A DNA stretch of 64,000 bases. Source: Haliotis cracherodii. Lineage: Eukaryota. The notes below the pieces were generated by a model. It did not search any database and was not told the origin of the DNA. It was given only the letters and a program-made list of their open reading frames with translations. Shown piece by piece: positions 39,792 to 64,000 of the stretch; positions within the stretch are counted from its first letter, which is position 1, and every line of letters starts with the position of its first letter. Both the position numbers and the translations under genes were made by a program. The stretch covers positions 12,028,001 through 12,092,000 of the forward strand of contig NW_027266319.1 in the NCBI RefSeq assembly GCF_022045235.1. Direction: 5' to 3'.

Positions 39792-40997
39792 ATGTTTGAC
39801 TTGTGCAGATGTGGCTTTATCCTCCTTCTCTGTCGCCTGACCCTGGGCTCTGTTTCCTACAAAGAGAAAGACTTCCTGGACAATCTCACCTTGAACTATG
39901 ACCCAAAGATCCGCCCCGTCTTAGATGGTTCCAATACGATGGTGGGTATCACAATGGGATTGTCCACAATTTTATCTCTTGATGAAAAACAGGAAGTGCT
40001 CAGTTTTAAAGCATGGGTTATAATGATCTGGAAGGACCAGCTTTTGATGTGGAACATGACAGACGGCATTCCTGATACAGTGGCTATGCCCTTGGTGGAT
40101 GTATGGTCACCTACCATAATGAATCTTGACTCTGTGACAGACCTGAGGTATCTTTATGATGAAACGGATTCTGTGCTTGTCAATAAGGATGGTACAGTTA
40201 TATATTCCTACGCAGGTAGGTTTGACATAGGATGCAAGGTGAATATACAACAGTTTCCTTTTGATCGTCAGTCATGTACTTTTCACTTGCAAACATTCTA
40301 TGCCCCTGTAACTAAGGAATATCTTCAGGTAGCAAACAAGAATTTAAATCTGGAAACATATAACCAAAACGGAGAATTTAACCTTGTCAGTGCATCAATG
40401 GCACTGCGGAAATTCAGGATTCACAATACAGGTCAAGAATGGATAGAGGTGACCATGGTCCTGCAGAGACGAACTATGTTCTACATCCTCAACAACATCC
40501 TGCCTGTCGTGTTCCTGTCCTTTCTCAATACCTTCGTTTTCCTGCTGCCCGAGGAGAGCGGAGAGATGATGTCCCTGTGTGTCTCCATCCTGTTGTCATA
40601 TGCTATGTTCCTCACCCTCATCAACTCCTACCTACCAGCAAACTCCGACCACCTGTGTTTCTTCAGTGTCTATGTCACCCTGCTCGTGTTAATCAGCACG
40701 CTCACGTGCCTTGCCACAATATTCATGCTGATACTACACACTCATCTACAAAGGGGCATGGCTAGTCCAAGATGGCTGCCAATTGCTCTGGGATCAGACG
40801 GCAAAGTTGGGACGACTGAACCACGGATTAAGAATGACGATGTAGCTCCATACCAATCAGATGTGAAAGACAAAGCAAACAAGAAGTTAGACATGAAGGA
40901 TGCGATAATCACCAAATGTAACAGGGTGGCATTTGGGACGTTCTTCACACTCACAATTCTTGTTAATCTGATATTTTTCATCTGCGTGTCTCTGTGA
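39792..40997 (+). CDS. Atypical nAChR-like Cys-loop subunit (R3), intronless, 401 aa
   Basis: MFDLCRC signal peptide, CKVNIQQFPFDRQSC, 4 TM; ATG shared with paralogs. Confidence 0.93.
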   Translation: MFDLCRCGFILLLCRLTLGSVSYKEKDFLDNLTLNYDPKIRPVLDGSNTMVGITMGLSTILSLDEKQEVLSFKAWVIMIWKDQLLMWNMTDGIPDTVAMPLVDVWSPTIMNLDSVTDLRYLYDETDSVLVNKDGTVIYSYAGRFDIGCKVNIQQFPFDRQSCTFHLQTFYAPVTKEYLQVANKNLNLETYNQNGEFNLVSASMALRKFRIHNTGQEWIEVTMVLQRRTMFYILNNILPVVFLSFLNTFVFLLPEESGEMMSLCVSILLSYAMFLTLINSYLPANSDHLCFFSVYVTLLVLISTLTCLATIFMLILHTHLQRGMASPRWLPIALGSDGKVGTTEPRIKNDDVAPYQSDVKDKANKKLDMKDAIITKCNRVAFGTFFTLTILVNLIFFICVSL

Positions 40998-41016
40998 TGG
41001 ACACCATCACTGATAT

Positions 41017-41018
<2 letters not shown>

Positions 41019-41103
<85 letters not shown>
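41019..41103. repeat. (TA)n microsatellite in the R3 3' region
   Basis: Pure TA run, absent from R4 and R5. Confidence 0.95.
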
Positions 41104-41105
<2 letters not shown>

Positions 41106-41259
41106 AAGTCATTGCCGTCATTGCTTCCGTAACTCGTCAGAAAACTCGTTGTAGACAGTGATAGTCAAACCAGAAGGATGAGACGTATTTTATGTGTGTA
41201 TCTTCATCTGAAGGTTACTGATTAAACACTTCTATGTGCAATTTGGTGATAAGACGTTT

Positions 41260-41945
41260 AGGCAAGAGGTAAGCATCCCTTTAGGCACCATTTGTGCTCT
41301 TGATTATCTGTTTGTTTGTTCATATTAATCGGAAATTCTGCTCGGATTGACAAAAACCAAACAAGGGAATTTGACCAAGAAGTTCAACTTTAGCTTCAGG
41401 TGTATCAAGGATCTGGCATGTTTCAATAACTGTCAAATAGCGAATTTACTTACACTTATCTACTCGCCTGAACTGGAAATAAACGAGATCAGTGACTCTC
41501 TTTAAGATTTAGATCTTTGCATAATGATTTAGAGTGGCAAAACACTCTCCAAAAGGCTGTATGACCAGAGGGATGGCTTCAACTTTCCAATAGTCAACAT
41601 TCGTTTTATGTCAAGCAATATACCAGCAGTTCCAGCCTTTGGGGTCTACCATTCTCCACGTTGGAGGTACAATCGAGCATGCTCTTTCAGCGAAGATTTC
41701 AAAGAGCATCATACAACATTCAAGGCATCCGTAAAGCTTTCAAAAGGTTTTATTGTATACATGTTGAGGACATTTCCAATCTGACACACCAATGACAAAA
41801 CATTACCTCCGATGCAATTCCTTTATTATTATTTGTACCATATCTTCTCGTGTATTTTTCAGGTGAACAGTTGACTTGCGTTTGCATGTGTTTGTGACAG
41901 GTGCCATCGGTGTGGTAGGATATGCTCATCGTTTCTCTGTCACCT
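41260..41945 (+). mobile_element. Degenerate Penelope-like RT fragment (paralogous copies ~48040-48650 and ~53500-53750)
   Basis: LYDQRDGFNFPIVNIRFMSSNIPAVPAFGVY..RYNRAC. Confidence 0.7.
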
Positions 41946-43511
41946 GCTATTAACCCTATTTGATACTCATTGATTTGCAATCGTGCAATCGTAATGTTGC
42001 TTTTATTTACACCTCTAGAAACGATTACACAGTACTGAATATTGAATTTCCCTGTTTTGTATATTTTGGGATACTTTAGATTATGGAGCAGGATGTCCCA
42101 GTGATCCAGCGCCACATTTCGATATGCAATGTTCCGCCCCCCGTACATTCAAGGATCAACTTACTGATCTTTGATTGCCAGCTTGCCCTGATTCTGATCA
42201 TTGGTTTGTCAGCACCATACAAATGCTCGTTGATTCCGCCAAATTGGCACATGTGTGGTTTTTAGAAACACTTCGTTTCTGTATACTAGTAGATAAAACA
42301 CTTTCTTAAACACCTGTGGGTGGGAAAACCATTTGAGATAACTGGTATCAAACATGTGTGAGATCAAATTCCTGGTCAGTGATTGGCTACTCCGAGGTGA
42401 TAACTTTCCAGATGGTAAGTCATTAATAGGTTGCTTGTGCTTCAGTCGAATGTCCACCTACGTCTGTGTTGAACGTAATGGTTTCAGAGTGTTAATAGAT
42501 ATAGTCCCGTGTTATGGGTTTTCGGACGCTTTAGAAACGTTCGCTTATCACAAGAACTGTAAAACATCACATTCACTTATTAAAGACAGCATTATCTAAA
42601 AATCAAGCCATCGTCTGAGTATTTACAATGTCTGTTGACACCACAACCCTCGTTATAGTGGGAGTAATTCGCGATAAACATGGTCGTCTGAAAACGTTTG
42701 ATGTCCGAAAACATATGATCTGACGATATATATGTCTCTCCTCTTTAACCCTCACTTTTAAGTTGACCAAAATTCGAAATACATCACGCACACTAAAAGT
42801 TGTGAATTCTGTTGGAATTCCCTGTTCTGTGATATCATCCACTGTCATTTTAGGCAAAGCAAAATTACTGCGGGTTTAGAAATCTAAATATTGGATGTTT
42901 TGTCAAAGGATTGAATTTCAATAATAGCACATTAGTGATCACGGGAATCAGTCTTTCACCAAATCATCATTCTGAAACGTCGCCGAGGAACCTGGAATCG
43001 TTTAGAATGTTTTGGAAAATACCAAAACACGAACGCTGAAGTGCACTTTCCGCCATATTGGATAGTGTCCACGAAAATCACGTTTCAGGTATGCGGGTTA
43101 TGAATATATATTATTAAAATGTCTTTCTGATATTGCAGTGAGTTAAGTATCAAAAATATATATAGTTTTTCAGTTTTGTGTACTGCTGACAGCTACAAAG
43201 GTGAGTGAAAAATATGATGAACATTGGCACAAATCCCTTGCTAAACCTGAACAAAAGATTATTTGATTTCACGATGAAAATCCTTTTGACATGCTTTGAA
43301 TTCCCAAAAAATAAAATGTCTTTCTTTGTCAAACAGTGACAAGACTGGCACGCTTATCTGCTATTTCATTAACAGCTGTGTCTGCTGGGATACATACAAC
43401 ATCATGCGATATACTATTATATTTAGAAGTGAGAGAATTGACTACACTCAAGTTATCATGCAAACGATTCCAGAAAAATCAATTCAAAGAAGAAGGACTC
43501 ACTCTGAAACT

Positions 43512-43610
43512 ATCATTGCATCGCCCGACCAAAACAAACCCCTCATTCTCACAACTGTTGCATCTCAAACTGCAATAGGGTACATTTTAGGCCAATTTGA
43601 TCTTCATGGA
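43512..43610 (+). mobile_element. Gypsy-type pol RT/RNase H junction remnant
   Basis: IIASPDQNKPLILTTVASQTAIGYILGQ resembles ILAYPDxxKPFILTTDASxxAIGxILxQ. Confidence 0.6.
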
Positions 43611-44327
43611 GTAACTTGGAATGGTGTTGTTAATTCATGTTTTTTGTCCCTACAAGTATCTTCCTGTTCTGATGATTTGTATCGTTTCTTTTGCTCGTCA
43701 GTTTCCATGTAAAGTCATCTTAGAGTACGAACCACATCCGCGTATAAGAACACAAATTACGTCATAGGAAAGTGTATTCCAAGGTAAAAGTTAGGCCGAA
43801 AAGAAGCCATGTGTGAAAGTTGTGAAACATCATTAGACATATGCAATTTGTGCAATCACATTTAATTGGATCATTTCAACATGATATATATTTAGTTGTA
43901 TTTCAAAAATATATTTGAAAAAATGATATTGGCGAATAGGTTGAATGTCTAATATTTAAATATGGGTGTTGGATGGTATCTTTTCCTCCTCAGACTAGTA
44001 TCCAGTTTGGAGGAGAGACTTCCAAACACTCCTCTCTGAACCAGCTTGGCATCATGGGACTTCTTAAAATATATATTCAACTACGATTTGAAAAGCCAAC
44101 CAATTGATATGAATAGACCCGACTGTCACCATCATTGACATTACAGACAAAATACAAGATAACTGTGATATTGTTTTAAACATTTTCAAACCTTTTTATT
44201 CTATTTGTAGGAAACAATATAAAATCTCATTACCCTCTCTCTGACAATAGTTGTTTGTAATGCCTTATACAACTTAATCTTTATACTTGACAAAAAATCA
44301 CTCTGCTACTAAACATCACTCAGTGAT

Positions 44328-44585
44328 GTGAGTGAGTGAGTGAGTGCGTTGGGTTTTACACCTCTTTAAACATTATTCCAGTATCAGCTTCACGTGGGAG
44401 GAAAGCCCGAAGTGATGCAGGCCTCAGACGTTTACCCTTTCGGTGAAATCCAAGAGCACGGGTATGGGGCTGACAAACCTAGAAACATCGGGGTGAACCT
44501 GAATTCGAACCCACAATCATAGGTTTCTGGCGTGCCCAAGGGACCCAACTCTGCCCCTTAGACGACTGACCCACCCGTGCCCCCA
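44328..44585 (-). mobile_element. SINE family C, near full length, tRNA-like head
   Basis: Head with TCAGTCGTCTAAGG and GGTTCGAATTC; CACTCAGTGATGTGA repeated on both sides as a TSD. Confidence 0.8.
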
Positions 44586-44669
44586 CTCAGTGATGTGAAA
44601 TTGATTAAATATTCATGCAAATAACATTATTATATGCTTTCATATATCCCCTGCAAGAATATTATATTT

Positions 44670-45081
44670 ATTTCACATGTCCGATATAACTAGAAGCAGT
44701 TCTGTAAAATTGAGATTCCCACTGGTACCCAACGGCAATGCAAACCTTCATTAATTCTTCAGGAAACGACAACGATGGTATAACATTCACTCAAGTCAAT
44801 ATTCATCGCTTCATTGAATACACTGTTTAAGACTAACATGGAAGGTTCTTTATATTCATGTCTGACACAAACAATGTCCAAACATCGTAATTGTCTTTTA
44901 GCAGTAATATAGCAGCCCACATCAAATTGACAGATCCTCGCTTCGCTTTGGCACGTCTCTCCTGGATACGAAGGATACCTACATAACGTCATTAATCGTT
45001 GCAAATATTCAGTTGTCATTGCGGCTGTGCTGTTTCTTCAGCATATTCCACACTGATACAGCTTTGGAAATGTTTGACTTG
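44670..45081 (+). pseudogene. Second truncated receptor paralog stub (ATGTTTGACTTG at 45070)
   Basis: Duplicate of 36700-37138. Confidence 0.6.
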
Positions 45082-46619
45082 ATACGCTCACCTTTTCGCA
45101 AACACCTGGTATCATCACTATTTGGTAGTGATTCATAAACGCATGCTCATGATATAGTCGGAATCGAACAATCGACTTATGAACGTGGAACGGGTTTTGT
45201 CGCTTTTATTGATAGGCAACAGTCATCTTGTCCCAATGAGATGTGAGTTGTTTTCCCCAAGTGATATTAATTGTGACAGAACAGAGAAAGTCATGGACCT
45301 GCCCACAGTGACATTGTGTCAAACGTAAAAAAACTTCTGAAAAGAAAACAGAAGAATGTAACGTCATGAACATTCAGGATGTGTGATGTCTGCTTTGCTT
45401 ACAGGTCGCCATTGCATGGCAGGAGAACTGCTTTGTGGCGTCAGGTGATACATACTTTTGTATGCAAATTGTGTGGGGTGGGTGCTATCGGAAGTCAGGA
45501 CATGCTTACCGTTTTTGTGAAAGTCTGGTGTCATCACTGATTTACAGTGTTCTTTTCATATAATTTTCAGAGCTGTTTGCGCTTTATGCCAAATGGAATT
45601 TGTACTATCGGTTAATCTTAACGAGTTATTCCCTTGCATTGGCAATTTATATTTAACGTGATTTGCCCAACATATACTGAACAACAAAAGTTCCTGTGAC
45701 ATTGAATAAGATCTAATGCAAAGCTATGTTTTTTTACCAAATCTGAAACAATTTCGGTTTGCAACAGACGAAAGACTCATGTAAGTGTTCAAATGGTTAA
45801 ATTTGCCATACTATAAGTTATGTGAAAATTGAGCAACCAAAGGCTACTCATGATGCCCCTGTTTTAATGGAAGTAGTGTGCCTTTTTATAAACTGCAGGA
45901 AAAACTAAAATGTGAAACCTATTTCTGGAATCCACTCTCGTGTTTTGGTTGGCATTTAGCAAGAAATCGGCCTGAAATCTAACACACTCACTTACCAAGT
46001 ATATTGCCTGTAATAAACGGGAGAAACTGAAAATATTTTGCATAATGTCTATGTGTTATAACTAATGATTACAATTCATTGACGTGACACTGGCGATAAT
46101 GTATCATACAAAAAATATCATAATATGTCAATATATTTCACCCGGCAGAAACAACTGGAAACAATTACTGGAAGTAGTTTTAAAAGAGTAACTGTCCATC
46201 AGTTCCCAACTTCAAAGCCAACTGTCATTAACGCATTAGGAATGTTTTATGCTTGTGTAACATACACTCAAGTCCAGTATTGAAAGTGTTACTAAATGTG
46301 CTCCATTCAGTGTCTAGGATGTCACATGATAGGTTCTCTTTTCATGTCCATAGAATTCAATGTGTAAACATCGATGATGGAATTTGCAATGATGTAGGTT
46401 TGCAACATACAATTGTCAAAGCTATTTCAGTTGTTGATGGAGTACACAAATTCAGACAATGACTACACGATCCTCGCTTTGGCAAGTCTCTCCTGGATAC
46501 GAACAAAACATTTATAGTGCCATGAATCATTTCTAATATTTTGTCACTGCGTGTGGACGTTTTCATTGCGGTTGTCCTATTTCGTCTTCAACGATAACTA
46601 CACTGACATATTTTTGGAA

Positions 46620-47825
46620 ATGTTTGACTTGTGCAGATGTGGCTTTATCGTCCTTCTCTGTCGCCTGACCCTGGGCTCTATTTCCTACAAAGAGAAAGAC
46701 TTCCTGGACAATCTCACCTTAAACTATGACCCAAAGATCCGCCCCGTCTTAGATGGTTCCAATACGATGGTGGGTATCACAATTGGATTGTCCACAATTT
46801 TATCTCTGGATGAAAAACAGGAAGTGCTCAGTTTTAAAGCATGGGTTATAATGATCTGGAAGGACCAGCTTTTGGTGTGGAACATGACAGACGGCATTCC
46901 CAATACAGTGGCTATGCCCTTGGTGGATGTATGGTCACCTACCATAATGAATCTTGACTCTGTGACAGACCTGAGGTATCTTTATGATCAAACGGATTCT
47001 GTGCTTGTCCAAAAGGATGGTACAGTTATATATTCCTACGCAGGTAGGTTTGACATAAGATGCAAGGTGAATATACAACAGTTTCCTTTTGATCGTCAAT
47101 CATGTACGTTTCACTTGCAAACATTCTATGCCCCTGTTACTAAAGAATATCTTCAGGTAGCAAACAAGTATTTAAATCTGGAAACATATAACCAAAACGG
47201 AGAATTTAACCTTCTCAGTGCATCAATGGCACTGCTGAAATTCAAGATTCGCAATGTCAGTCAAGAAATGATAGGGGTGACCATGGTCCTGCAGAGACGA
47301 ACTATGTTCTACATCCTCAACAACATCCTGCCTGTCGTGTTCCTGTCCTTTCTCAATACCTTCGTCTTCCTGCTGCCCGAGGAGAGCGGAGAGAAGATGT
47401 CCCTGTGTGTCTCCATCCTATTGTCATATGCCATGTTCCTCACCCTCATCAACTCCTACCTACCAGCAAACTCCGACCACCTGTGTTTCTTCAGTGTCTA
47501 TGTCACCCTGCTCGTGTTAATCAGCACGCTCACGTGCCTCGTCACAATCTTCATGCTGATACTACACACTCATCTTCAAAGGGGCATGGATGGTCCAAGA
47601 TGGCTGCCAATTGCTTGGGGATCAGACAGCAAAGTTGGGACGACTGAACCACGGGTTAAGAATGACGATGTAGCTCCATACCAATCAGATGTGAAAGACA
47701 AAGCAAACAAGAAGTTAGACATGAAGGATGCGATAATCACTAAATGTAACAGGGTGGCATTTGGAACGTTCTTCACACTTACAATTCTTGTTAATCTGAT
47801 ATTTTTCATCTGCGTCTCTCTTTGA
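46620..47825 (+). CDS. Atypical nAChR-like Cys-loop subunit (R4), intronless, 401 aa
   Basis: Close paralog of R3; intact ORF. Confidence 0.93.
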   Translation: MFDLCRCGFIVLLCRLTLGSISYKEKDFLDNLTLNYDPKIRPVLDGSNTMVGITIGLSTILSLDEKQEVLSFKAWVIMIWKDQLLVWNMTDGIPNTVAMPLVDVWSPTIMNLDSVTDLRYLYDQTDSVLVQKDGTVIYSYAGRFDIRCKVNIQQFPFDRQSCTFHLQTFYAPVTKEYLQVANKYLNLETYNQNGEFNLLSASMALLKFKIRNVSQEMIGVTMVLQRRTMFYILNNILPVVFLSFLNTFVFLLPEESGEKMSLCVSILLSYAMFLTLINSYLPANSDHLCFFSVYVTLLVLISTLTCLVTIFMLILHTHLQRGMDGPRWLPIAWGSDSKVGTTEPRVKNDDVAPYQSDVKDKANKKLDMKDAIITKCNRVAFGTFFTLTILVNLIFFICVSL

Positions 47826-49461
47826 TGGACACCATCACTGATATAGCAGAATATAACCTGTTTGACTACCAAACAATGAAATCAGTGCCGTCATTGCTTC
47901 CGTAACTCGTCAGAAAACTCGTTGTAGACAGTGATAGTCAAACCAGAAGGATGAGACGTATTTATGTGTGTATCTTCATCTGAAGGTTACTGATTAAACA
48001 CTTCTTTGTGCAATTTGGTGATAAGAGGTTTAGGCAAGAGGTAAGCATCACTGTAGGCACCATTTGTGCTCTTGAGTATCTGTTTGTTTGTTCATATTAA
48101 TCGGAAATTCTGCTCGGATTGACAAAAACCAAACAAGGGAATTTGACCAAGAAGTTTAACTTTAGCTTCAGGTGTATCAAGAATCTGGCATGTTTCAATA
48201 ATTGTCAAATAGCGAATTTACTTACACTTATCTACTCGCCTGAACTAGAAATAAACGAGATCAGTGACTCTCTTTAAGATTTAGATCTTTGCATAACGAT
48301 TTAGAGTGGCAAAACTCTCTCCAAAGGGCTGTATGACCAGAGGGATGACCATTCCCCACGTTTGAGGTTCAATCGAGCATGCTCTTTCAGCCACGATTTC
48401 AAAGAGCATCATACAACATTCATGGCATCTGTAAAGCTTTCAAAAGGTTTTATTGTATACTTGTCGAGGACATTTCCAATCTGACACATCAATGACAAAA
48501 CATTACGTCCGATGCAATTCCCTTATTTTTATTTGTACCATATCTTCCCGTGTATTTTTCAGGTGAACAGTTGACTTGCGTTTGCATGTGTTTGTGACAG
48601 GTGCCATCGGTGTGGTAGGATATGCTCATCGTTTCTCTGTCACCTGCCACTATCCCTATTCGATGCACAAGGATATGATTTAGTCAGAATAGTACAATCG
48701 TAATGTCGCTTTTATATACACCTCTGGAAACGATTACACAGTACTGAATATTGAATTTCCCTGTTTTGTATATTTTGTGATACTTTAGATTAGGGAACAG
48801 GATGTCCCAGTGATCCAGCGCCACATTTCGATATGCAATGTTCAGCCCCCCGTACATTCAAGGATCAACTTACTGATCTTTGATTGCCAGATTTGCCCTG
48901 ATCCTGATCATTAGTTTGTCAGCACCATACAAATGTTGATTCCGCCAAATTGGCACATGTGCACTCTGGCACACTCCGTTTCTGTATACTGGTAGATAAA
49001 ACACTTTCTTAGACACCTGTGGGTGGGAAAACCATTTGAGATAACTCCGTGGTGATGACATGAGGTCAGATTATGACGGACTACTTTCCAGATGGTAAGT
49101 CATAGATAAGTTGCTGGTGCTTCAGTCGAATGTCCACCTACGTCTGTGTTGAACGTAATGGTTTTAGAGTGTTAATACATATAGTCCCGTGTTATGGGTT
49201 TGTGGACGCTTAAGAAACTTTCACTAATCTCAAGAACTGTAAAACATCGCATTCACTTATTAAAGACAGCATTATCTAAAAATCAAGCCATCATCTGAGT
49301 ATTTACAATGTCTGTTGACACCAAAACCTTCGTTATAGCGGGAGTAATTCGCGATAAACATGGTCGTCTGAAAACGTTTGATGTCCGAAACCATATGATC
49401 CGACAATATATACGTCTCTCCTCTTCAACCCTCACTTCGAAGTCGACTAAAATTCGAAATA

Positions 49462-50607
49462 TACTGAACAAAATTAAAAACTTCACGATCCTAAAATTTT
49501 AACATTTTGACCAGTTATCATTGTGGGCCCTTACTGTGTATTTAAACAGTAAAGGCCACGTATTGTCTTCAGATAACACCTGTTTTTGTGCAGGTGAATC
49601 TATAGTACAAAACTATAGCACTATAATGGCAAAATTGTTTTTTCACGTGCAACTGGTCACGTGGCCATAATACTGCACGTGTTTTCAGCCATACTTGTTC
49701 GCAGTCATTAACAAAAAAAGACAAGAAAACAAAAGTCCTTACAGCCATTTGTCATGCCACGCCTTTCAAATGTGCAACGTGAACGTGCCATCGGCATGTT
49801 GCAGGCGGGAACGTCCGTAGCTGAAGTCGCAAGGATGATGAGCTTTAGTCGACGGACTGTTTATGATTTACAGATGCGTCTACCGCAAACGGGTACCACC
49901 GCTGATCGCATTCGCCCAGGTCGACCACGTGTGACGTCACATGCAGAGGATCGTCAGATTGTCTTACGTCACCTCCGTAACCGATTTTTGACGGCTACAT
50001 CAACCAGAAATTAACTGTTTAGGGGTAGACTGAGTGCGCAAACTGTTCGAAACCGTCTGACAACTGCTCACCTTCAAGAACGACGGCCATACTGCGGGCC
50101 GATTCTGACTCAATTACACAGACGTCAACGTCAATTGTGGGCACAGCGACACTTACGATGGACTCAGAGGAATTGGAATCAAGTCGTCTTAAATGATGAA
50201 TCCCGATTTAATCTTGGATTTGCTGATGGTAGGGCGAGGGTGTGGAGGCGCCATCATGAAAGGTACGCCCAGTGTTGTATACAGGAAGTTGACAGGAAGA
50301 TTGACAGGAAGGTCTCCCGACCTCAATCCCATCGAACACGTCTGGGATGCTCTTGGCAGAAGTCTGCGCACTCTCCAGAACCAACCACAGAATTTGCAAG
50401 ATTCTCGTGCTTGGGACTTATGATTTAAACTGTTGATGTTATTACCGAATACCGTAGGTGCTTGGAACAAATTATGGTTACCACTGTTAATTAAAATCCT
50501 TCTTTGGACATTAATGATTGAAAATTACCTTCTCTGATACATTTGTCCGTTGTATATCACATATGGGATTACTTTTAAAAATGTGAAGTTTTTTATTTGA
50601 CTCAGTA
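49462..50607 (+). mobile_element. Degenerate Tc1/mariner element
   Basis: TIR TACTGAACAAAATTAAAAACTTCAC, TA TSD; MPRL..GRPR, NDESRF, PDLNPIEHVW; empty site at ~42771-42800. Confidence 0.9.
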
Positions 50608-52129: not shown

Positions 52130-53335
52130 ATGTTTGACTTGTGCAGATGTGGCTTTATCGTCCTTCTCTGTCGCCTGACCCTTGGCTCTGTTTCCTACAA
52201 AGAGAAAGACTTCCTGGACAATCTTACCTTGAACTATGACCCAAAGATCCGCCCCGTGTTAGATAGTTCTAACACGATTGTGAATGTCATTATGGGATTG
52301 TCCACAATTTTATCTCTTGATGAAAAACAGGAAGTGCTCAGCTTTAAAGCATGGGTTTTAATGACATGGAAGGACCGGCTTTTGGTGTGGAACATGACAA
52401 ATGGCATTCCTAATACAGTGGCTATGCCTTTGGTGGATGTATGGTCACCAACCATAATGAATCCTGACTCTGTGACAGACCTGAGGTATCTTTATGATGA
52501 AACGGATTCTGTGCTTGTCAATAACGATGGTACAGTTTCATATTCCTACGCAGGTAGGTTGGACATAGGATGCAAGGTGAATATACAACAGTTTCCTTTC
52601 GATCGTCAGTCATGTACTTTTCACTTGCAAACATTCTATGCCCCTATAACAAAGGAATATCTTCAGGTAGCAAACAAGTATTTAAATCTGGAAACATACA
52701 ACCAAAACGGAGAATTTCACCTTCTCAGTGCATCAATGGCATTACAAAAATTCAAGATTTACAATGTCACTCATGAATGGATAGAGGTGACCGTGGTCCT
52801 ACAGAGACGAACTATGTTCTACATCCTCAACAATATCCTGCCCGTTGTGTTCGTGTCTATTCTCAATACTTTCGCCTTCCTGCTACCCGAGGAGAGCGGA
52901 GAGAAGATGTCCCTGTGTGTCTCCATCCTGTTGTCATATGCCATGTTCCTCACCCTCATCAACTCTTTCCTACCAGCGAACTCCGACCACCTGTGTTTCT
53001 TCAGTGTCTATGTCACCTTGCTCGTGTTAATCAGCGCACTCACATGCCTTGTCACAATATTCATTCTGGTACTTCACACTCATCTACAAAGGGGCATGGC
53101 TAGTCCAACATGGCTGCCAATTGCTTGGGGATCAGACAGCAAAGTTGGGACGACTGAACCACGGGTTAAGAATGACGATGTAGCTCCATACCAATCAGAT
53201 GTGAAAGACAAAGCAAACAAGAAGTTAGACATGACGGATGCGATAATCACCAAATGTAACAGGCTGGCATTTGGAACGTTCTTCACACTTACAATTCTTG
53301 CTAATCTGATATTTTTCATCTGCGTGTCTCTGTGA
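52130..53335 (+). CDS. Atypical nAChR-like Cys-loop subunit (R5), intronless, 401 aa
   Basis: Paralog of R3/R4; intact ORF. Confidence 0.93.
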   Translation: MFDLCRCGFIVLLCRLTLGSVSYKEKDFLDNLTLNYDPKIRPVLDSSNTIVNVIMGLSTILSLDEKQEVLSFKAWVLMTWKDRLLVWNMTNGIPNTVAMPLVDVWSPTIMNPDSVTDLRYLYDETDSVLVNNDGTVSYSYAGRLDIGCKVNIQQFPFDRQSCTFHLQTFYAPITKEYLQVANKYLNLETYNQNGEFHLLSASMALQKFKIYNVTHEWIEVTVVLQRRTMFYILNNILPVVFVSILNTFAFLLPEESGEKMSLCVSILLSYAMFLTLINSFLPANSDHLCFFSVYVTLLVLISALTCLVTIFILVLHTHLQRGMASPTWLPIAWGSDSKVGTTEPRVKNDDVAPYQSDVKDKANKKLDMTDAIITKCNRLAFGTFFTLTILANLIFFICVSL

Positions 53336-54892
53336 TGGACACCATCACTGATATGGCAGAATAGAAAATGAAATCATTGCCGTCATTGCTTCTGTACAGT
53401 AAGAGTCAGACCAGAAGGATGAGACGTCTGTTATGTGTGTATCTTCATTGAGAGGTTACTGATAAAACATTTCTATGTGCAATGTGGTGATGAGACGTTT
53501 AGGCAAGACGTAAGCATCACTCTAGGCACCAACTGTGCTCCCCTTCTTGATAATCTATTTCTTTGTTCATATTAATCGTAATTTCTGCTCGGATTGGCAA
53601 AAACAACTCAAGGGAATACATGTGTACATGTCGAGGACATTTCCAATCTGACACATCAATGACAAAACATTATGTCCGATGCAATTGCCTTTTTTCATTT
53701 ATACCCAATCTTCCCGTTTATTTTTCAGGTGAACAGTTGACTTGCGTTTGTATAGAGATTTGTTAAGATAATTGAAATGTTTTAGTCGACTTTCATTTAC
53801 ACAAGAAACGATTAATTTCCCTGTTTTGTATATTTTGGGATACTTTAGATTAGGGAGCAGGATGTCCCAGTGATCCAGTGCCGCATTTCGATATGCAATG
53901 TTCCATCCCCCGTACATTCAAGGATCAACTTACTGATCTTTGATTGCCAGATTTGCCCTGATTCTGATCATTAGTTTGTCAACACCATACAAATGCTCGT
54001 TGATTCCTCCAAATTGGCACATGTGTTGTTTTTAGAGACACTTCGTTTCTGTATGCTAGTAGATAAAACACAATCATCTTGACAGATGAGATGAGATGAG
54101 ATTAACCTGTCGATAAATCTCAGGTTAGGTTCAAGAGTTAACCTTATCGTGCGCAGCATTGTCCTGTTTTCGTTCATCGTTTATCTTCAGTAATAAGTTC
54201 ATTTGTGTATAACATTTGTGTTTGCGTCAGTAATAACATAATAGATGTAGAAACTATGTTTATTTTGCCGTAAATTACCTTAAGTTTGTATTCCGATAAC
54301 TGACTGCACAGAGTGACATGCCAGGTTACTAGGCCGCGCCATTTTGAATCATGATATCATCGATATTTGTGTTCCCTCAGTTACATTACAATTATTGCAA
54401 AAAGTGACGTATTTTAAGTTCCTCAACTTCTGTCAGTTTGTTAAGTTGTTATGTTAGTCGAATGCTTTGTGGTATAAAATGATAACACAGTACATATTCG
54501 TTCGATGACCAGCTGTGACGTCACAGTTTGTTTACTGTTAGAGACGGTCAGCTGGTTGTGGCGTTGTGGTTGTTTTTACGGTTAAGATCCCGTTAGATTG
54601 AGATCAGCTGTGAATGAATGCAGTGGCTTGATATTGTGAGTATGTCAGTAGCTTACCACAATGCCACACACATATCTTTGTCACTGTTTTAGCTCCTATA
54701 TTGTATATTTATTGAATAATTTAATATATATATCCTTATTAATAGATATACTTGCTAGTTTGAGTTGTTGATTCATATAAATAAATTGATAGTGTTATTG
54801 TTGACAATGATATCCTGTTCTGTGTTTATTTGAACATGCAAACTGTGATACCATGTCCAGTTAAATGAAACCCCAAGATCCATCACTGTTTT

Positions 54893-54910
54893 TGGTGTCA
54901 GAAGTGGGAT
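54893..54910 (+). mobile_element. LTR-retrotransposon primer-binding site (tRNA-Leu-like)
   Basis: TGGTGTCAGAAGTGGGAT, 18 nt, complementary to a tRNA 3' end including CCA. Confidence 0.55.
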
Positions 54911-55333
54911 ATCTTTGGAATGTTTTATAACAATTGTGTAAAAAAGAAAATAATTTATTTTTTTGTTTTTGTTGAAATGTTGCCGTTTTAAATCTGATCA
55001 TATTCAATAGATAATCATCACCAAGAAGGTCCACCTTACTATCTCAGGTCACATGCACCCATTGCACCCGCCGTGGAGAATGTCAGACCTATAAAGAGTA
55101 GTAATGAAACGATGGATAGTGTTGGCCACCAAGGGAATCCTATACAATCGTTCAGCGAAGGACGTGTGGGTGATCCTAATAGGCAGCCAAGTACACTTAC
55201 TGCACCTCAGCTTCGCTGGTCTAACCATCACGTACCCAATGACAACTCTCCTGATCCATCTACAAAGAGGAGTGAAATATATTGGCATATGATAAACATG
55301 GGCACAAATCTCTTGCTAAACCTGAACAAATAT

Positions 55334-55563
55334 TGTCTTCAGCAACCCATACTTGCTGTAAAAGGCGACTATGCTTGTCGTAAAAGGCGACTGACGGGAT
55401 CGGGTAGTCAGGCTCGATGACTTGGTTGATACATGTCATCGATCCCAATTGCGTGGATCGATGCTCATGATATTAATCACTGAATTATCTGGTCCAGACT
55501 CGATTATTTACAGACCGCCGTCATATAGCTGCAATATTGCTGACCAAACCAACCAACCAACCA
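55334..55563 (+). mobile_element. SINE family B, slightly 5'-truncated
   Basis: Matches consensus, (ACCA)n tail. Confidence 0.8.
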
Positions 55564-56221
55564 AGCATGATGAAAATCCTTTTGACATGGTTTGAATTCC
55601 GAAAAATAAAATAACATTATTTGTCAAACAGTGACAAGACTGGCACGCTTATTTACTATTTCATTACCATCCGTGTCGGCTGGGATACATACAAAATCAC
55701 ATGATATACTAGTATATTTAGAATTGAGATAATTGCCTATACTCTAGATGTCATGCAAACTTTCACTTTTCGATCCAGTTGCCCCAAACTCAATTTTGCC
55801 GCTGCCATCGAGTCAGTAAAAAGGATCGATCAAGACGAGGCCTATTTGTGCATAGAGCATTCTTCTGATCACAATTCCAATTTTCACCTTTGATCCAAAT
55901 TTGTTTGATATCATGTGCTGGCTACATAGGCGCTAAAACACTTATACAGGGACGAGGGTTGGGCTTATTGGCAGTTCTGGCAAATTTCAATTCCTTCAAA
56001 CACTGCTTTGATTATCGGCCTCAAAGTTTTCTTTTGTAGTCTAGCAGCCCCACTTTAACGCAGACAATTTCTTTTGTTTCATTCATGCCACTAATTACAA
56101 AGGCTGAAGCTTGACTGATATGAGTTCTAGGCCATAGATCGCAGTCTCCCTTTAAAATTGATAAGGTTTCGGAGGGTCAACTTGAAAAAAAGGTTTCCAA
56201 GGGAATTTTGGGAATAATATA

Positions 56222-57766
56222 TACTCACACGCAAAAGAAACGCAAGTCAAGTATGCAGTATACATGTTATTTATTTTCAACAGTAAAGACAAGAAATACT
56301 ATGAGGGCAAGATTGACAAAAATTTGACTGAAGACAGTTTAATGGATTAAAAGACAGATGACATAATTGGGTTTTTTCAAATGTTAAGGGCTTACACAGT
56401 TTCGGGTCAATACCCAAAACGTCAGTAAATACATGGTGTGACCACCATTAGCATTGATCACTGCCACACATCTCCTGTACATTGAGTGGATCAGACGATT
56501 TGTGAAGGCCCTAGGGATCCTCCTGCACACATCCAGAGCAGCTGTGCGTAGTTCATCGGCAGTTGTAGGGACTGGGCGCATATTGTGCAGATGCCTTTGA
56601 ACCTCATCCCAAAAGTGTTCCATGGGGTTCAGATGAGGGCTGAGGGCTGGTCACAGTAGGACACGGATGTTGTGTTTTTGCAGAAAGGTCATGGTAGCTC
56701 TGGCAAAATGGGGACGAGCGTTGTCCTGCTGGAAAATGTGTTGTTGATGTTGTGCAAAAAGTGGAACAACGTGGGGTCTGATCACTTGGTCGATATACCG
56801 CTGAGCAGTGACGCCGTGTCCCCGACCTTGACCAACATTCAGAAGTCACATGGGTCCAAGTCTCGCATTAAGTCTAATTCCTGCCCATATCATGACGCTA
56901 GGTCCACCCCATTTATCCCTTTCCACAACGTTTCTCTCAGGGAAACGATCACATCAACGCCGCCAAATTCTGACTCTTCCGTCTGCATGGGAGACACAAA
57001 AGCGATTTTCATCAGAGAAAATGACACGCCTCCACTCACGATGACGCCAATTGTGATGACCCTGTGCCCACTGAAGTCGTGCTTGTCGATGCCGTGGTTG
57101 GAGAACAGGACGACGTGCTGGTCGGCGACATCTGAGGTTGTTGGAACGGATACGTCGGATCACAGTGTCCCGGCTAATGTGTCGATTATGTGTTCCTATG
57201 GTCTGTCGAGCACTTTCACTTGCAGCTAGGAACGGATGACGCTGGTGTTGACGGGTAATCTGCCGATCATGTCGAGGTGTGGTGACCCTAGGACGACCGC
57301 TCCGAGGAAGGTCATCTGTGGTCTGTGTAGCATTGTATCGATGCAGGAGACGGTAAATTGTGGGTATGTTAACGTTGAAATGACGGGCAACATCTTCGAC
57401 AGACTCTCCAGCTTCCAAACGTCCGATAGCCTGGTTTTTCTGAATTTGAGTAAGGCGTGGCATTGTTGACCAAGGAGTGGTTGGTCCAAGAATCGGCAAC
57501 AGTTCTATACCCAATACAGTTCGTGACAGTTCGTGCATTTCCGATTTCGCGAGAAATGGGTGCATGATACCCACATATTCATTGAAATGGTGCGTTTTGG
57601 AGATTCGTTTTTTATGTTGCGTTTTTACTCGGGGCTTCCAAAATGCAACCAAAAATATTGATAACACCATCAGGCTTCACTACATGCTAAAACTCGTATC
57701 AATTTATGGTTCCGTGTTTGTTACCTATTAGCTTAAAGCAACTTGCGTTTCTTTTGCGTGTGAGTA
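56222..57766 (-). mobile_element. Tc1/mariner element, full length, disrupted transposase (from 57463)
   Basis: Perfect 26-bp TIR TACTCACACGCAAAAGAAACGCAAGT, TA TSD; MPRL, GRPR, FSDEN, stop at 56954, NPMEHFW, GGHT. Confidence 0.93.
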
Positions 57767-57857
57767 TACAATAATATGTTTTTATCCGTACAATTATATT
57801 TCTTGTTTTCTTTTTCTGTCGATCTGCTGAATTCAATGCCTGTTTATGGCTGGAAAT

Positions 57858-58250
57858 ATGAGTGAGTGAGTGAGTAAAAATTGTACATCGCATCGGCAAT
57901 ATTTTAGCCATATCGTGATCAGAACAAGGTAGTTACACAAATTAAAGTGAGTCAGTGAGTTACAATTTTAAGTCATATCGGCAATATTTTAGCCATATTG
58001 TGACTATCACGGGTTAAACAAAATAAAAACATTGAGACTTTTATAAAATCCTGCTAACGAAGGACAGTTAAATAACTAGACATATCACAGAAAACGATTT
58101 AAAATAAAATGGACAGCACTGTACATAGAAATACGTGATAAAACGGACTATAGATCGCCAGCAATTGAAGGTAGATCACCATACTGGGAACCATGGGGAC
58201 TTACAGTACTGTTGCTACCTGCATGGACCCCACCAGCAACACCACATCGT
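57858..58250 (-). mobile_element. 3' UTR/tail of an I/Nimb-like LINE
   Basis: 58150-58240 is the reverse complement of 62325-62680 minus the SINE; ends in an (ACTC)n tail. Confidence 0.65.
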
Positions 58251-59117
58251 CTTTAAACATGTATCATTAATGGCAGTTCTCCAATTCTTAATAAATTCGT
58301 CTATATATTCACGAACCGTGAATGTATATAGATAATACTCAAATGCTAGAAGTGATTTATATTCTGGATACAGACATACTAGTAGTTTATTTGATTTACC
58401 CAAAAATGGAATACAGCTCTTAATCTCTGTACAAAGTGTAATTAAAATAATATTATCACCAATTTCTCGTGTGATTCATTCAAGGTCATAAGTCTTTTTT
58501 ACATTTGAAACCCACGTTGCGCGATTACATTGATGTAAAGATCCACATAGCAGATAACATTATATATCTGTTATTAGACACTGACAACAATTTCAACCAA
58601 CAAATCTCTTGTGATAGTCAGCAAAACAACCGTATCTACCACATTCACCAAGTACAGCCACATGTTTACCTACACCTTTAGCATACTTGAACACTTTTAT
58701 AAGAAAACACTCGATATATTTTAGAATATCACCACTTGAAATTTATTTAATATGTGTATCAACATTTTGTAACAGATGGTGAAACATTCTGTAACTTGAA
58801 GTGTAACTGTTTAACATGACCTCCAACTTAATTAGCTTTAAGAATAAGACCATATTTATAAAACCTATTTGAGGACAGCAACTCAAGATAATTATAGTAC
58901 GTAGATCTTTTTACATGTTCATTTCCACACATCCATTTTGCAGTGCTTCCAAGTGTACCACCATTCCGAAAAGTAAGATTTCTGTCTTATCTACATTAAT
59001 TTGTAAGCCCCATCTAATCCTAATTTCTTTGAAAACATTGCATTTCTATATTATACCAATAACTGTCATCAAAGGGTCTTCTGCATATAACAATAACAAT
59101 ATATCTAGTTTGTTTCG

Positions 59118-59353
59118 GTTTGTTTGTTGTTTAACGCCGCACTCAGCAATATTACAGCTATATGACAGCGGTCTGTAAATAATCGAGTCTGTACCAGACA
59201 ATCCAGTGATTGACATCAAGAGCATCGATCCACGCAATTGGGATACGATGACATTCATCAACCAATTCAGCGAGCCTGACCACCCGATCCTGTTAGTCGC
59301 CCTTCACGGCAAGCACAGGTTGCTGAAGACCTACTCTACCCAGGATCTTCACG
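59118..59353 (-). mobile_element. SINE family B
   Basis: Matches consensus. Confidence 0.8.
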
Positions 59354-59354
59354 A

Positions 59355-59810
59355 CTTTTGAAGATACTTTTGAGATACAATCGAGCATGCTCTTTCTACT
59401 AAGATTTCAAAGATCGTCATACAACTCTTGCTCAGAAGTTGTTTTATCAAGGTTACACCATTCAAGGCCTCAGAAAGCTTTTTAAAAAAATGGTATGGTG
59501 GACGCAAATTTAACAAATTTAACGATGAAAAAATATGTCCGATGCAATTCCTTATTTTCATTTGTAGCAAATCTTCGCGTTTTGTTTTTCCGGTGAACAA
59601 TTGACTTGCCTTTTCAGGTGTTTGTGACGGTTGCCAGCGACAACAGTATGCTTACCTATTCGCGAACAACTGGTATCCTCACAAATTCATAGTGATTCAT
59701 GAACACATGTACACCACATACTAGTAGTCGGATTCTCTCACAGTCGACTATGTTTTTGACAGAATTTTTTCTTATGAATATGGAAAGGATTTAGTCGCTT
59801 TTATAAAATA
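59355..59810 (+). mobile_element. Penelope-like element 3' fragment
   Basis: LRYNRACSF..DFKDRH..LAQKLFYQGY. Confidence 0.65.
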
Positions 59811-60559
59811 CAATTTAATCTCCAAAATGAAAAATAACCTTTCCTCCTGTGACATGCAGTTCAAAGAGCCTACATGGTCACTTAATGAGTTTCACCAAGC
59901 TAAATAGAAAACAGTCACATGATAAAAACTTTTAACACCTAATCCAGAACAAGCCAATATTTAGTTTTACTAAACCAGAATAAGTTTCCACAGGCGATAA
60001 AAACTACGAGTTGAAATACCTCACGAATGTACTAGACCTGAATGTCAACATAGTTGACATTACAACTGCAATACAACTGCAAAACAACTGCAAAACACTA
60101 CCACCAACACAACATCATTTTTATATTGCTTCAGACCTGTATACTTTATATTTCAGTTTCAAGAAACAATTAAGTGAGTTGTGACGCTACTTTAACAGAA
60201 TTTGTGTGACATAACTATGTGCCTGCTGTGGTAATGGTCGAAGACGTTTACCACTTTGGTGAAATCCACGAACATGGGGATGATGCTGACAGACCTAGAA
60301 ACCTAATCCATGATTCAAACCCACAATCATATATTTCTGGTGTGTCCATGGAAAGCAACTCGACACAGCGAATACCGGCGCCTTAGACGACTGTGTCACT
60401 CATGCCACCACGAAACAATATACAACCCCATTACCCAATGACACCAATAAGTAAGGATGTTTCTGATAATACAACGAAACCTTTAATACTTGATGCAAAA
60501 TCGCTCTGCTATACAATCACTGATGATTAAAACGCTGTGATCTGATACTGACGACAATA

Positions 60560-62817
60560 TATAATTGTATACAATTTTGCAGAAAATACAAACCTTATAA
60601 AGACCCTGATTTGGTTTTAGAAAGCACTCCTATTAAAGGTGTAAAAGAGGTTCTTGGGTATTATTGTTTATCTCCATTTAACCTTTTTACCACACATAAA
60701 ACATTTGAAAAATAAATGCCTGAAGGCACTTGACCTTCTGAAAGTCGTTTCAAGTTCAAAGTGTACAGGGCACTCACTTATACGCTCTAAACTGGATTAT
60801 GGCTTCATCATCTATGGGGGACTCTGTAAAAGTAATTTAAAAGTATTAGATAGTATTCATCAGGCTTTGCCTCGGAGCCTTCAGAACATTCCCTCTTAAT
60901 AGCCTGTATGTGGAAGCTGATGACCCATCGCTAAAAACAACGTTGCATTAAATCATCTTTACAGTATATTTCTAAGCTGCATTCTGATCATTCTAATCCA
61001 GCCTACGAATGTGTTTTTAATCCTCCATATAAAGAACAAAAATACATCTCTTACTTCACCCCTAGGAATCAGAATACAATCTCATATTTCTGCTTCTCAA
61101 ATTAATCTTGAAAATATAGCCCCAGCCAAACTCCTGTCTTCACCACCATGGCAGTTGGTAAAGCCAGTAGTGGATACAACATTAATTAAACTAAAGAAAT
61201 CTGATACAAATCAACTAATTTATCAACAACAATACAATGAATTACGAAGCACATATGATGCTTACAAATCTATATTTACAGATGGATCCAAGGATGGTGC
61301 CGCAGTTGCCAGTGCCACCTTCATTGGATCCAGGACTATTTCGTCAAGACTACCGGATAATTGTTCCATTTTTACAGCTGAATCACATACTATATCAACA
61401 ACACTAGAGTACATTTGTAAACAATCGAAACATAAACAATTTATTATAGTTTCAGATTCTTTATCCTGTCTTCAGACAATACAAAATCAGTCTTGCAAAC
61501 ATCCACTTTTAATCGAAATCCTTGAATTATATAATGATCTTGCTACTGGCCAATACGACATCGTCTTTCGTTGGTTACCCAGCCATGTTGGAGTCATTGG
61601 TAACACAATGATCGATGCGTCTGCAAAAGCACCTCTTTACACATCCGTGACACCACTTTTAATTCCATACAGTGATTATAAACCTGTGATCAGATGCTAC
61701 ATCCGAGATCTTATGCAACAGAAATGGGACACCCAAGTAGGTATCAACAAATTACATGAAATTAAACCAAATATCGGTTACACCTACTTGGGTTGTCAGT
61801 CCAGACTTGAAGAGGTAATTTTACGACTATGTCGTATTGGCTATAGTAGATATACTCACGAATATTTATTGAAAGGTGCAGATCGTCCATTTTGTATCCC
61901 TTGTGATGAGAGAAAATCACGGTCAAGCATGTCCTGCTTGACTGTATTGATTTTGCCATCACAAGGGATAACTATTTCACATCATCATCTCTCAAAGATC
62001 TTTTTAATAATATTACTTCTCTTTTAATTATTGGGTTTTTAAAAGAAATAGAATTGTATAATAATTTTTGATAATGTCTTGTATAAAATAAATGATCTTT
62101 TAAAATTGGTAGAATGAATTTATATCTGAGTTTGTTACTGACTGTATCCTCAAAAGGGGGTTGACGTAGTGAAAAATAATTGTCCCCCTGAGAGGATATC
62201 GTAAGTCCATGTCATTCAAAGAATATTTCTGCTTATTACTCCTTTAAACGTAGAATATTTGTAATTTTATTTGTTGCTAACTTTGCGTACAATCGCCAGG
62301 TGCTGAACGAATGATGTAAATCCTGCTGGGTTCCATGCAGGTTGCAAAGGTACTGTAAGTCCCCATGGTCCCCCCGACCCGTGAAGATCCGGGGTAGAAT
62401 AGGTCTTCAGCAACCCATGCTTGCCGTAAAAGGCGACTAACGGGATCGGGTGGTCAGGCTCGCTGACTTGGTTGATGCATGTTATCGATCCCAATTGCGT
62501 GGATCGATGTTCATGATGTAAATCACTGGATTGTCTGGTCCAGACTCGATTATTTACAGACCGCCGTCATATAGCTGGAATATTGCTGAGTGCGGCGTTA
62601 AATAACAACCAAACCAAACCAAAACCCCATGGTCCTCAGAATGGTGGTCTACCTTCAGTTGCTGGCGATCTAGAGCCCGTTTTTATCTTGTATTGTAACG
62701 TATAGTGCCATCCTTTTTTTATGATTCCATACTAGTTTGATATCTTTTTCTGTGAGAAGTCTAGTTATTTTACTGTCATTTGTTGGCAGGTTTTTCAAAT
62801 GTTCACTCACTCACTCC
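60560..62817 (+). mobile_element. 5'-truncated, degenerate I/Nimb-clade LINE with RNase H domain
   Basis: LIRSKLDYG, IFTDGSK, SIFTAE, SDSLSCL, WLPSHVGVIGN, RIGYSRYTHEYLL..CIPC; frameshifts. Confidence 0.85.
62372..62624 (+). mobile_element. SINE family B, full length, inserted in the LINE 3' UTR
   Basis: 11-bp TSD CCCCATGGTCC. Confidence 0.9.
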
Positions 62818-63304
62818 TAACATATACGATTAAACATGGTTATTAGAAGTAGTTTTGTAAAAGCTAAATTCATTATTGCTTTAGCAAATAACAATGATGG
62901 TTCAACATACACTCACATGAATATTCAAAGCGTTAACAAATGTGTTCCATGCAATAAGATGACATAATTATAACATAACGTGATTGTATTCATGTCTTAC
63001 AATCGTACAAACCACTCTGCTTTAAGCAGAGAAGTTTTGTTGCTTTTATTTACATATACAATGTCCGAACATCGATAGTGTAATGACATTCAAGTGTTAT
63101 GTTGGGGCGCATCATCATATTGACAAAGCTATTCAGATGGTGATTGTGAAATTCAGATAATGACTAAACGGTTTCTCTTGGATACGAACAATACCTTTGT
63201 AATACTATACATCATTTCTAATATTGAGTCTCAGCGTGTGGCCGTTTCCATTGCAGTTGTGCTGTTTCTTATTCGACGTTAACCACCCTGACATAGTCTT
63301 GGAA

Positions 63305-64000
63305 ATGTTTGACTTGCACAGATGTGTCCTTATCCTTCTTCTCTGTCACCTGACAATTGGCTCTGTTTCTTACAAAGAGAAAGATTTTCTGGACAATCTC
63401 ACCTTGAACTATGACCCCAAGATCCGTCCCGTGTTAGATGGTTCCAATACGATGGTGGGTATCACAATGGGATTGTCCACAATTTTATCTCTGGATGAAA
63501 AACAGGAAGTGCTCAGCTTTAAAGCATGGGTTTTAATGACATGGAAGGACCAACTTTTGGTGTGGAACATGACAGATGGCATTCCCGATACAGTGGCTAT
63601 ACCCTTGGTTGATGTATGGTCACCAACCATTATGAATCTTAACTCTGTGACAAACTTGAGGTATTTGAAAGATAATACGGATACTGTGCTTGTCTTTCGG
63701 GATGGAACAGTTATGTATTCCTACACAGGTAGGTTTGACATTGGATGCAAGGTGAATATCCAACAGTTTCCTTTTGATCCTCAGTCATGTACTTTTCACT
63801 TGCAAACATTCTATGCCCCTGTAACTAAGGAATATCTTCAAGTACAAGACAAGCATTTAAATCTAGAAACATATAAGGAAAGCGGAGAATTTCACCTTCT
63901 CAGTGCATCAATGGCACTACGGGAATACAAGACTCTCGGTGTGAGCAGTGACTGGATTGAAGTGACCTTAGTCCTGCAGAGACGAACTATGTTCTACATC
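63305..64000 (+). CDS. Atypical nAChR-like Cys-loop subunit (R6), runs off the window end (absent from the ORF track)
   Basis: Open frame MFDLHRCVLILLLCHLTIGSVSYKEKD...CKVNIQQFPFDPQSC...LQRRTMFYI. Confidence 0.88.
   Translation, partial: MFDLHRCVLILLLCHLTIGSVSYKEKDFLDNLTLNYDPKIRPVLDGSNTMVGITMGLSTILSLDEKQEVLSFKAWVLMTWKDQLLVWNMTDGIPDTVAIPLVDVWSPTIMNLNSVTNLRYLKDNTDTVLVFRDGTVMYSYTGRFDIGCKVNIQQFPFDPQSCTFHLQTFYAPVTKEYLQVQDKHLNLETYKESGEFHLLSASMALREYKTLGVSSDWIEVTLVLQRRTMFYI

What the first reader, a model, noticed from the sequence alone, without database searches (positions are those of the whole stretch)
40380..63970. Substitutions among young paralogs concentrate in ligand-pocket loops
R3-R6 are otherwise very similar, but loop C reads RKFRIHNTGQEWIE / LKFKIRNVSQEMIG / QKFKIYNVTHEWIE / REYKTLGVSSDWIE. 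The loop E region reads DETDSVLVNKDGTVI / DQTDSVLVQKDGTVI / DETDSVLVNNDGTVS / DNTDTVLVFRDGTVM. Loops D and F also vary (IMIW vs LMTW; ANKN, ANKY, QDKH). This pattern suggests diversifying selection on ligand specificity.
Basis: partly seen in the sequence, partly recalled or inferred. Interest (0 to 1): 0.72.

Follow-up and report, generated by a model that had tools for sequence, protein, structure and literature searches.

The report
Abalone receptor array diversifying its pocket
A row of near-identical abalone genes for acetylcholine-receptor-like ion channels differ mostly at the rim of their predicted ligand pocket, while their pore region is shared even with much older neighbours, so they likely form a set of chemical sensors tuned to different ligands, much like the octopus taste-by-touch receptors.

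Summary
Observation confirmed. R3-R6 are the first four of 12 tandem, intronless Cys-loop genes, one frameshifted. They lack the acetylcholine-site residues. Among R3-R6, 19 of 38 published alpha7 pocket positions vary, against 30 of 168 other ectodomain positions (p=9e-5). Loop G also varies; loop B does not. The pattern repeats in 21 of 26 other paralog clusters. Positive selection is probable, not proven. Recombination-partitioned M8a/M8 gives p=0.013, and loop C pooled over 25 clusters gives omega 2.0, p=0.006. Against this, the whole published pocket averages omega about 1, the single-tree test is not significant against mosaic nulls (7 of 55), and only 3 of 11 site classes tried here pass. 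A second result: M1-M3 is homogenised even between old paralogs (fourfold sites 76% identical versus 33% in the ectodomain). Best reading: a shared pore with a diversifying sensor, like octopus chemotactile receptors. Ligand and tissue are unknown.

The parts
39792..40997 (+). R3, intronless Cys-loop receptor gene, 401 aa, ectodomain subtype A
   Evidence: PF02931 + PF02932; AlphaFold model pLDDT 87, best matches nAChRs
46620..47825 (+). R4, paralog, subtype A, 94% aa identical to R3
52130..53335 (+). R5, paralog, subtype B
63305..64000 (+). R6, paralog, subtype C; cut by the window end, complete in L009
39939..39956 (+).
40014..40028 (+). R3 loop D, residues 75-79: W75 (alpha7 W55) invariant, 77 and 79 variable
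40155..40214 (+). R3 beta5-beta6 / loop E region, residues 122-141; 124, 131, 132 and 137 have three or more states among R3-R6
40293..40307 (+). R3 loop B, residues 168-172: invariant in all 11 intact paralogs; F at the alpha7 W149 position
40332..40343 (+). R3 loop F variable segment, residues 181-184
40407..40442 (+). R3 loop C hairpin, residues 206-217, tip 211-212; no vicinal cysteines
47235..47270 (+). R4 loop C; N-glycosylation sequon at N212
52745..52780 (+). R5 loop C; N-glycosylation sequon at N212
63920..63955 (+). R6 loop C; no sequon; 6 of 15 residues differ from H. rubra P0004, but 9-10 of 15 from its own neighbours
40449..40739 (+). R3 end of beta10 to M3 (about residues 220-316): tract homogenised with the old paralogs R1 and R2, most likely by gene conversion
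   Evidence: (I1-I4, D10)
23515..24714 (-). R1, old paralog (ectodomain about 40% aa identical to R3); DNA of its M1-M3 part about 85-90% identical to the young array
26752..27912 (+). R2, old paralog with the same pattern as R1

Best explanation
These genes are a tandem array of intronless, nicotinic-receptor-like channel subunits that lack the acetylcholine-binding residues and vary mainly at the predicted rim of the inter-subunit pocket, likely because selection retunes each copy to different outside chemicals, while gene conversion likely keeps a common pore. Shown by sequence or calls: the array of 12 young and 2 old genes; the nAChR fold; loss of the vicinal cysteines and of the Y93, W149 and Y195 equivalents; variation concentrated at pocket-facing positions of loops C, D, E, F and G, with loop B and W55 fixed; no raised synonymous divergence in those segments; and near-identical M1-M3 DNA between old paralogs. 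Statistically probable: omega above 1 in loop C and pocket-facing residues. Inferred: unequal crossing-over makes copies; copies assemble as homo- or heteropentameric cation channels (GEK-type motif before M2); homogenised pores would keep subunits compatible; the ligands are environmental compounds (algal, biofilm or predator cues) sensed in peripheral tissue.
For: Fixed-site omega in this array: pocket 1.35, other loop residues 0.53, rest of ectodomain 0.24 (2dL 51 versus one omega). In 20 independent pairs and trios: 1.38, 0.61, 0.34. Within the same strands, pocket-facing residues have omega 1.55 and core-facing neighbours 0.09. In the 26 other clusters all 8 positions with pooled omega above 1 (LRT>3.84, uncorrected) fall in the 30-position pocket set. 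Pocket pN exceeds rest-of-ectodomain pN in 21 of 26 clusters; pN/pS is 1.28 in loop C against 0.27-0.66 in four other ectodomain segments and 0.63 in the M3-M4 loop. Loop C pooled over 25 clusters: omega 2.0 with its own synonymous rate (p=0.006), 2.3 with multi-nucleotide changes (p=0.0055). Partitioned M8a/M8 p=0.013; null simulations reached the observed value in 0 of 19 and 0 of 18. Six larger clusters: M8a/M8 p=7e-8 (single trees, recombination not corrected). H. rubra paralogs P0004 and P0005 differ at 9 of 30 pocket versus 18 of 176 other positions (p=0.007). M1-M3 fourfold-site identity between old linked paralogs is 76% versus 33% in the ectodomain, and 33.5% in M1-M3 of unlinked pairs. 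Octopus CRT1 has a conserved inner pocket and a diversifying outer rim (10.1101/2025.10.28.685082, passages).
Against: The published 38-residue pocket has omega 1.09, 1.06 and 0.97 in three data sets, not above 1. Of 11 site classes tried in this array only 3 gave p<0.05 with shared dS, and I chose them after seeing its alignment. Sites picked blind from the other clusters give omega 1.6-1.8 here but p=0.07. The single-tree M1a/M2a statistic was matched by 7 of 55 mosaic null simulations. With segment trees plus multi-nucleotide changes the 24-codon class gives p=0.12. In pairs and trios alone, loop C with its own dS gives p=0.1. Pocket pN exceeds ectodomain pS in only 14 of 26 clusters. The M3-M4 loop of pairs and trios also gives M8a/M8 p=0.024, so the test can fire in loosely constrained regions. 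This array's candidate sites have omega 1.08 in other clusters. No ligand, tissue or channel activity is known.
Confidence: 0.55

Rival explanations
1. Relaxed constraint. The subunits no longer bind a ligand at this site (structural, non-alpha or degenerate subunits), so pocket-facing residues drift at about omega 1, and recombination and multi-nucleotide changes push estimates above 1.
For: Published pocket omega about 1. Pocket-facing strand residues have omega 0.97-1.03 in other clusters. Recombination is significant (p=0.0005 whole gene, 0.008 ectodomain) and inflates single-tree tests. The acetylcholine-site residues are lost.
Against: Loop C stays at about 2 pooled with its own dS and with multi-nucleotide changes. 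Loop B and W75 are invariant in this array, so part of the pocket is constrained. The pocket changes faster than the M3-M4 loop. 11 of 12 copies are intact.
Confidence: 0.25
2. Arms race at the pocket. The receptors bind an endogenous ligand or act in defence, and the rim changes to escape, or to catch, predator or algal toxins or microbial molecules.
For: Variable positions 77, 137 and 217 correspond to alpha7 Q57, Q117 and D197, which contact alpha-conotoxin OmIA in a docking model (PMC8692984, passages). An N-glycan sequon at the loop C tip is present in 6 of 11 paralogs, and loop C glycosylation is a known way to resist alpha-neurotoxins (PMC9543476, passages). Some oyster nAChR genes respond to infection (PMC6896357, passages).
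Against: Escape from toxins does not need about 130 divergent, intact copies that lack the acetylcholine site. Loop C sequons occur in only 4 of 27 clusters. Any pocket ligand touches the same residues, so position does not single out toxins.
Confidence: 0.12
3. Old pocket segments inside homogenised scaffolds. The subtypes are older than they look; gene conversion erased differences elsewhere, while selection kept the pocket segments distinct.
For: R6's loop C is closer to H. rubra P0004 (6 of 15 differences) than to its neighbours (9-10 of 15), though elsewhere it is much closer to its neighbours. Conversion is demonstrably active in M1-M3. Segment 189-228 has the greatest fitted synonymous depth (0.79 versus 0.34-0.54).
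Against: Synonymous differences between subtype C and the others are not higher in pocket segments (5-7 of 29-34 codons versus 18-21 of 125-131, p 0.45-0.8). The fitted synonymous rate of pocket classes is 0.5-1.0 of the rest.
Confidence: 0.08

Closest known systems
Intronless, tandemly duplicated nAChR-like genes of molluscs (Jiao et al. 2019, PMC6896357; passages seen)
   Same: Intronless, tandem arrays of up to 12 genes, lineage-specific expansion, diverse ligand-binding domains; the authors propose broadened ligand specificity.
   Different: In that paper's main text 'Haliotis', 'selection' and 'loop C' occur 0 times. Here the array is in an abalone, selection was tested, and the pore is homogenised between old paralogs.
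Cephalopod chemotactile receptors (CRT1, CRB1); seen through review PMC11526382 (passages) and bioRxiv 10.1101/2025.10.28.685082 (passages); the 2023 Nature papers were not held
   Same: nAChR-derived, intronless (PMC13174522), not acetylcholine-gated, positively selected sites concentrated in the pocket, conserved inner pocket with a diversifying outer rim.
   Different: CRs have known ligands, sucker expression and structures; none is known here. Relationship to the CR or CR-like clades was not tested. The selection signal here is weaker.
Vertebrate nAChR alpha7 and muscle nAChR
   Same: Best sequence match (E 9e-44) and fold (TM-score 0.74-0.87; Z 33, rmsd 2.9 over 363 residues). Cys-loop, W55, GEK-type motif before M2 and M2 9' leucine kept.
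   Different: No vicinal cysteines (0 of 132 full-length family members). Y93 is L, W149 is F, Y195 is Q/H/S/N. Loop C region two residues shorter, short M3-M4 loop, single exon.
TLR1/TLR6 domain-limited gene conversion (PMC2077338; abstract seen)
   Same: Tandem paralogs whose membrane and signalling part is homogenised by conversion while the N-terminal recognition part diverges.
   Different: Unrelated receptor family; here the shared part is an ion-channel pore, shared among 14 genes and across opposite strands.

Membership tests
Cys-loop pentameric ligand-gated ion channels | Ligand-binding domain with C-x13-C loop plus four transmembrane helices | tested here: met
   PF02931 and PF02932 above cut-off; C148 and C162; model and fold matches
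Cys-loop pentameric ligand-gated ion channels | Pentamer assembly and ligand-gated current | not testable with these tools
   Inferred from homology only; no complex was predicted
nAChR alpha subunits (acetylcholine-binding) | Vicinal cysteines in loop C | tested here: not met
   Absent in R3-R6 and in all 132 full-length family members
nAChR alpha subunits (acetylcholine-binding) | Aromatic box Y93, W149, Y188, Y195, W55 | tested here: not met
   L112, F169 and Q/H/S/N215 replace three of them; W75 is kept; Y188 may be F/Y208 or I/T210 depending on register
Molluscan intronless tandem nAChR-like expansion (Jiao 2019) | Single-exon coding sequence | tested here: met
   Uninterrupted 400-405 aa ORFs
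Molluscan intronless tandem nAChR-like expansion (Jiao 2019) | Tandem arrays, lineage-specific, about 100 or more genes | tested here: met
   14 genes in 107 kb; 149 matches among 150 scored of 239 candidates; 132 full-length ORFs; close homologues named Haliotis in 13 of 15 rows, 2 unnamed
Cephalopod chemotactile receptors | Phylogenetic membership of the CR or CR-like clade | not tested
   No CR sequence was in hand; the wide structure search did not run
Cephalopod chemotactile receptors | Positive selection concentrated in the orthosteric pocket | tested here: inconclusive
   Concentration met; omega above 1 probable but model-dependent
Cephalopod chemotactile receptors | Expression in sensory epithelium and gating by hydrophobic environmental compounds | not testable with these tools
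   Runs are coded, without tissue; none on record as RNA

The most novel reading that the evidence does not exclude
Abalones have a second, independent repertoire of more than 130 taste-like Cys-loop channels. It is built on a modular plan: gene conversion standardises the pore across each array, even between old paralogs on opposite strands, and positive selection diversifies the pocket rim. Subunits of one array could then mix freely into pentamers with combinatorial pockets. This would be a candidate ionotropic basis for grazing and larval-settlement cue detection in gastropods.
Probability: 0.3. Interest if true: 0.8.

Novelty: new variant of a known kind. Interest (0 to 1): 0.52.

Why it matters
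The function of the 100-200 divergent nAChR-like genes in molluscs is an open question (PMC6896357; PMC13174522 calls their characterisation a high priority). Pocket-focused diversification in many independent arrays of a gastropod would extend the octopus chemotactile-receptor story beyond cephalopods. This array gives a ready test set: five ectodomain subtypes that are 75-93% identical, differ at a few mapped residues and share nearly the same pore, which suits expression and loop-swap experiments. The pore-limited gene conversion also means trees built on whole genes or on transmembrane regions will misplace these receptors, and that single-tree selection tests on them are anticonservative. 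My seven literature searches turned up no paper reporting selection on abalone nAChR-like genes or pore-limited conversion in Cys-loop receptors. The library lacks most subscription journals, and I opened no supplements.

Tried and rejected
Expression: no RNA holder listed. Laying guessed-RNA contigs gave a few low-depth pieces (depth 2-4) over the gene, and cover on flanking repeats as well; this is no evidence either way. Single-tree M7/M8 (p=0.043), M1a/M2a (p=0.064) and M8a/M8 (p=0.018) on the ectodomain are not relied on, because mosaic nulls reach the M1a/M2a value in 7 of 55 runs. No positive-selection class was found in M1-M3 or in the M3-M4/M4 part of this array. The broad loop definition gives omega 0.88-0.92. 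Codon bias as the cause of the M1-M3 similarity was rejected: chance identity at fourfold sites is about 0.28, and unlinked pairs show 0.335. The wide structure search for CRT1/CRB1 was busy twice; these chains are not among the listed rows, which excludes nothing. Allard 2023 and Kang 2023 were not held. The choanoflagellate paper (abstract) is unrelated. No complex prediction was sent, since a pass would follow from likeness to solved nAChRs. Rows dropped: 19 partial ORFs of 151, including frameshifted R14 (L012); 41 of 132 full-length genes with no paralog at 80% identity or more; clusters 1 and 23 from loop C tests, for gaps there. The codon models are my own implementation (GY94, F3x4, naive empirical Bayes), not codeml or HyPhy; null simulations are few (18-55).
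Full report
What is there. The window is G000:C56:12,028,001-12,092,000 of a 1.18 Gb animal genome. The best protein match is named Haliotis cracherodii by its source and lies on a contig of the same length as C56, so this is most likely the black abalone. The window holds six single-exon Cys-loop receptor genes. R1 (23515-24714, minus strand) and R2 (26752-27912) are old paralogs. R3-R6 are the first four of 12 young copies that continue to C56:12,158,500, 4.8-11.3 kb apart. Eleven are intact and the last is frameshifted. By ectodomain they form subtypes A (R3, R4), B (R5), C (R6, R8, R9, R13), D (R7, R10-R12) and E (R14). The genome gave 149 matches among 150 scored of 239 candidates; I recovered 132 full-length ORFs, 91 of them in 27 clusters of 80% identity or more.

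What kind of protein. The best solved relative is nAChR alpha7 (E 9e-44). An AlphaFold monomer (pLDDT 87) matches nAChRs (TM-score 0.74-0.87; Z 33, rmsd 2.9 over 363 residues). The Cys-loop, W55 (W75 here), a GEK-type motif before M2 (GEM in R3) and the 9' leucine are kept; reading these as cation-channel marks is established knowledge, recalled. The vicinal cysteines are absent, as in all 132 family members, and Y93, W149 and Y195 are replaced. These are therefore not acetylcholine-binding alpha subunits, despite their automatic names.

Noticed in passing
window 23667-24040 (-), 27404-27741, 40448-40821, 47276-47649, 52786-53159; also arrays on C16 (L028, L085-L088) and C56:25.6 Mb (L111-L112): M1-M3 DNA is homogenised between old linked paralogs, with raised GC at fourfold sites: pore-limited gene conversion.
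   Followed up: yes
proteins P0002, P0003, P0008, P0011, P0014, P0015: Public gene models for this array in four Haliotis species skip the core of the ligand-binding domain, from about residue 51 to 181-206, and two fuse neighbouring genes. Probably annotation errors on single-exon genes, but the shared 5' break point could be a real splice donor.
   Followed up: no
window 47253, 52763 and D-type copies (residue 212): An N-glycosylation sequon at the loop C tip is present in 6 of 11 paralogs; loop C sequons occur in 4 of 27 clusters and differ among members in 3.
   Followed up: partly
window 63917-63961 (R6 loop C): Subtype C loop C is closer to H. rubra P0004 than to neighbouring paralogs: retained ancestral state, old segment or convergence.
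   Followed up: partly
window 40566-40568 (R3 residue 259): R3 alone has Met in place of the conserved Lys of the GEK motif before M2, which may alter conductance or selectivity.
   Followed up: no
L012 (G000:C56:12157645-12158946): Last copy of the array (subtype E) is frameshifted in loop F and has the most divergent ectodomain, with Arg at the alpha7 S34 position.
   Followed up: no
L006 (R10): Chimera with a D-type ectodomain and a C-type M3-M4 loop and M4.
   Followed up: partly
window 11721-14531 (-): Intact single-exon GH31 alpha-glucosidase with a trefoil domain and an N-terminal membrane anchor, 936 aa; lack of introns suggests a retrogene.
   Followed up: no
window about 16600-19800: Degenerate tandem array of 11-13 bp units.
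   Followed up: no
window 21212-21943 (+): 243-codon open frame built on eight 33-bp repeats (D/N/S/K-rich), no Pfam match.
   Followed up: no
window 1602-2612, 8229-9050, 37888-38403, 56954-57676; 29089-30318; 60924-62027: Four Tc1/mariner-like transposase remnants (recognised by eye, not searched), a reverse-transcriptase ORF and an RNase H ORF.
   Followed up: no
window 36690-37138: About 70% identical copy of the region just upstream of R3 and R4 (39339-39803, 46167-46631) with no receptor ORF behind it; possibly a remnant of a lost copy.
   Followed up: no
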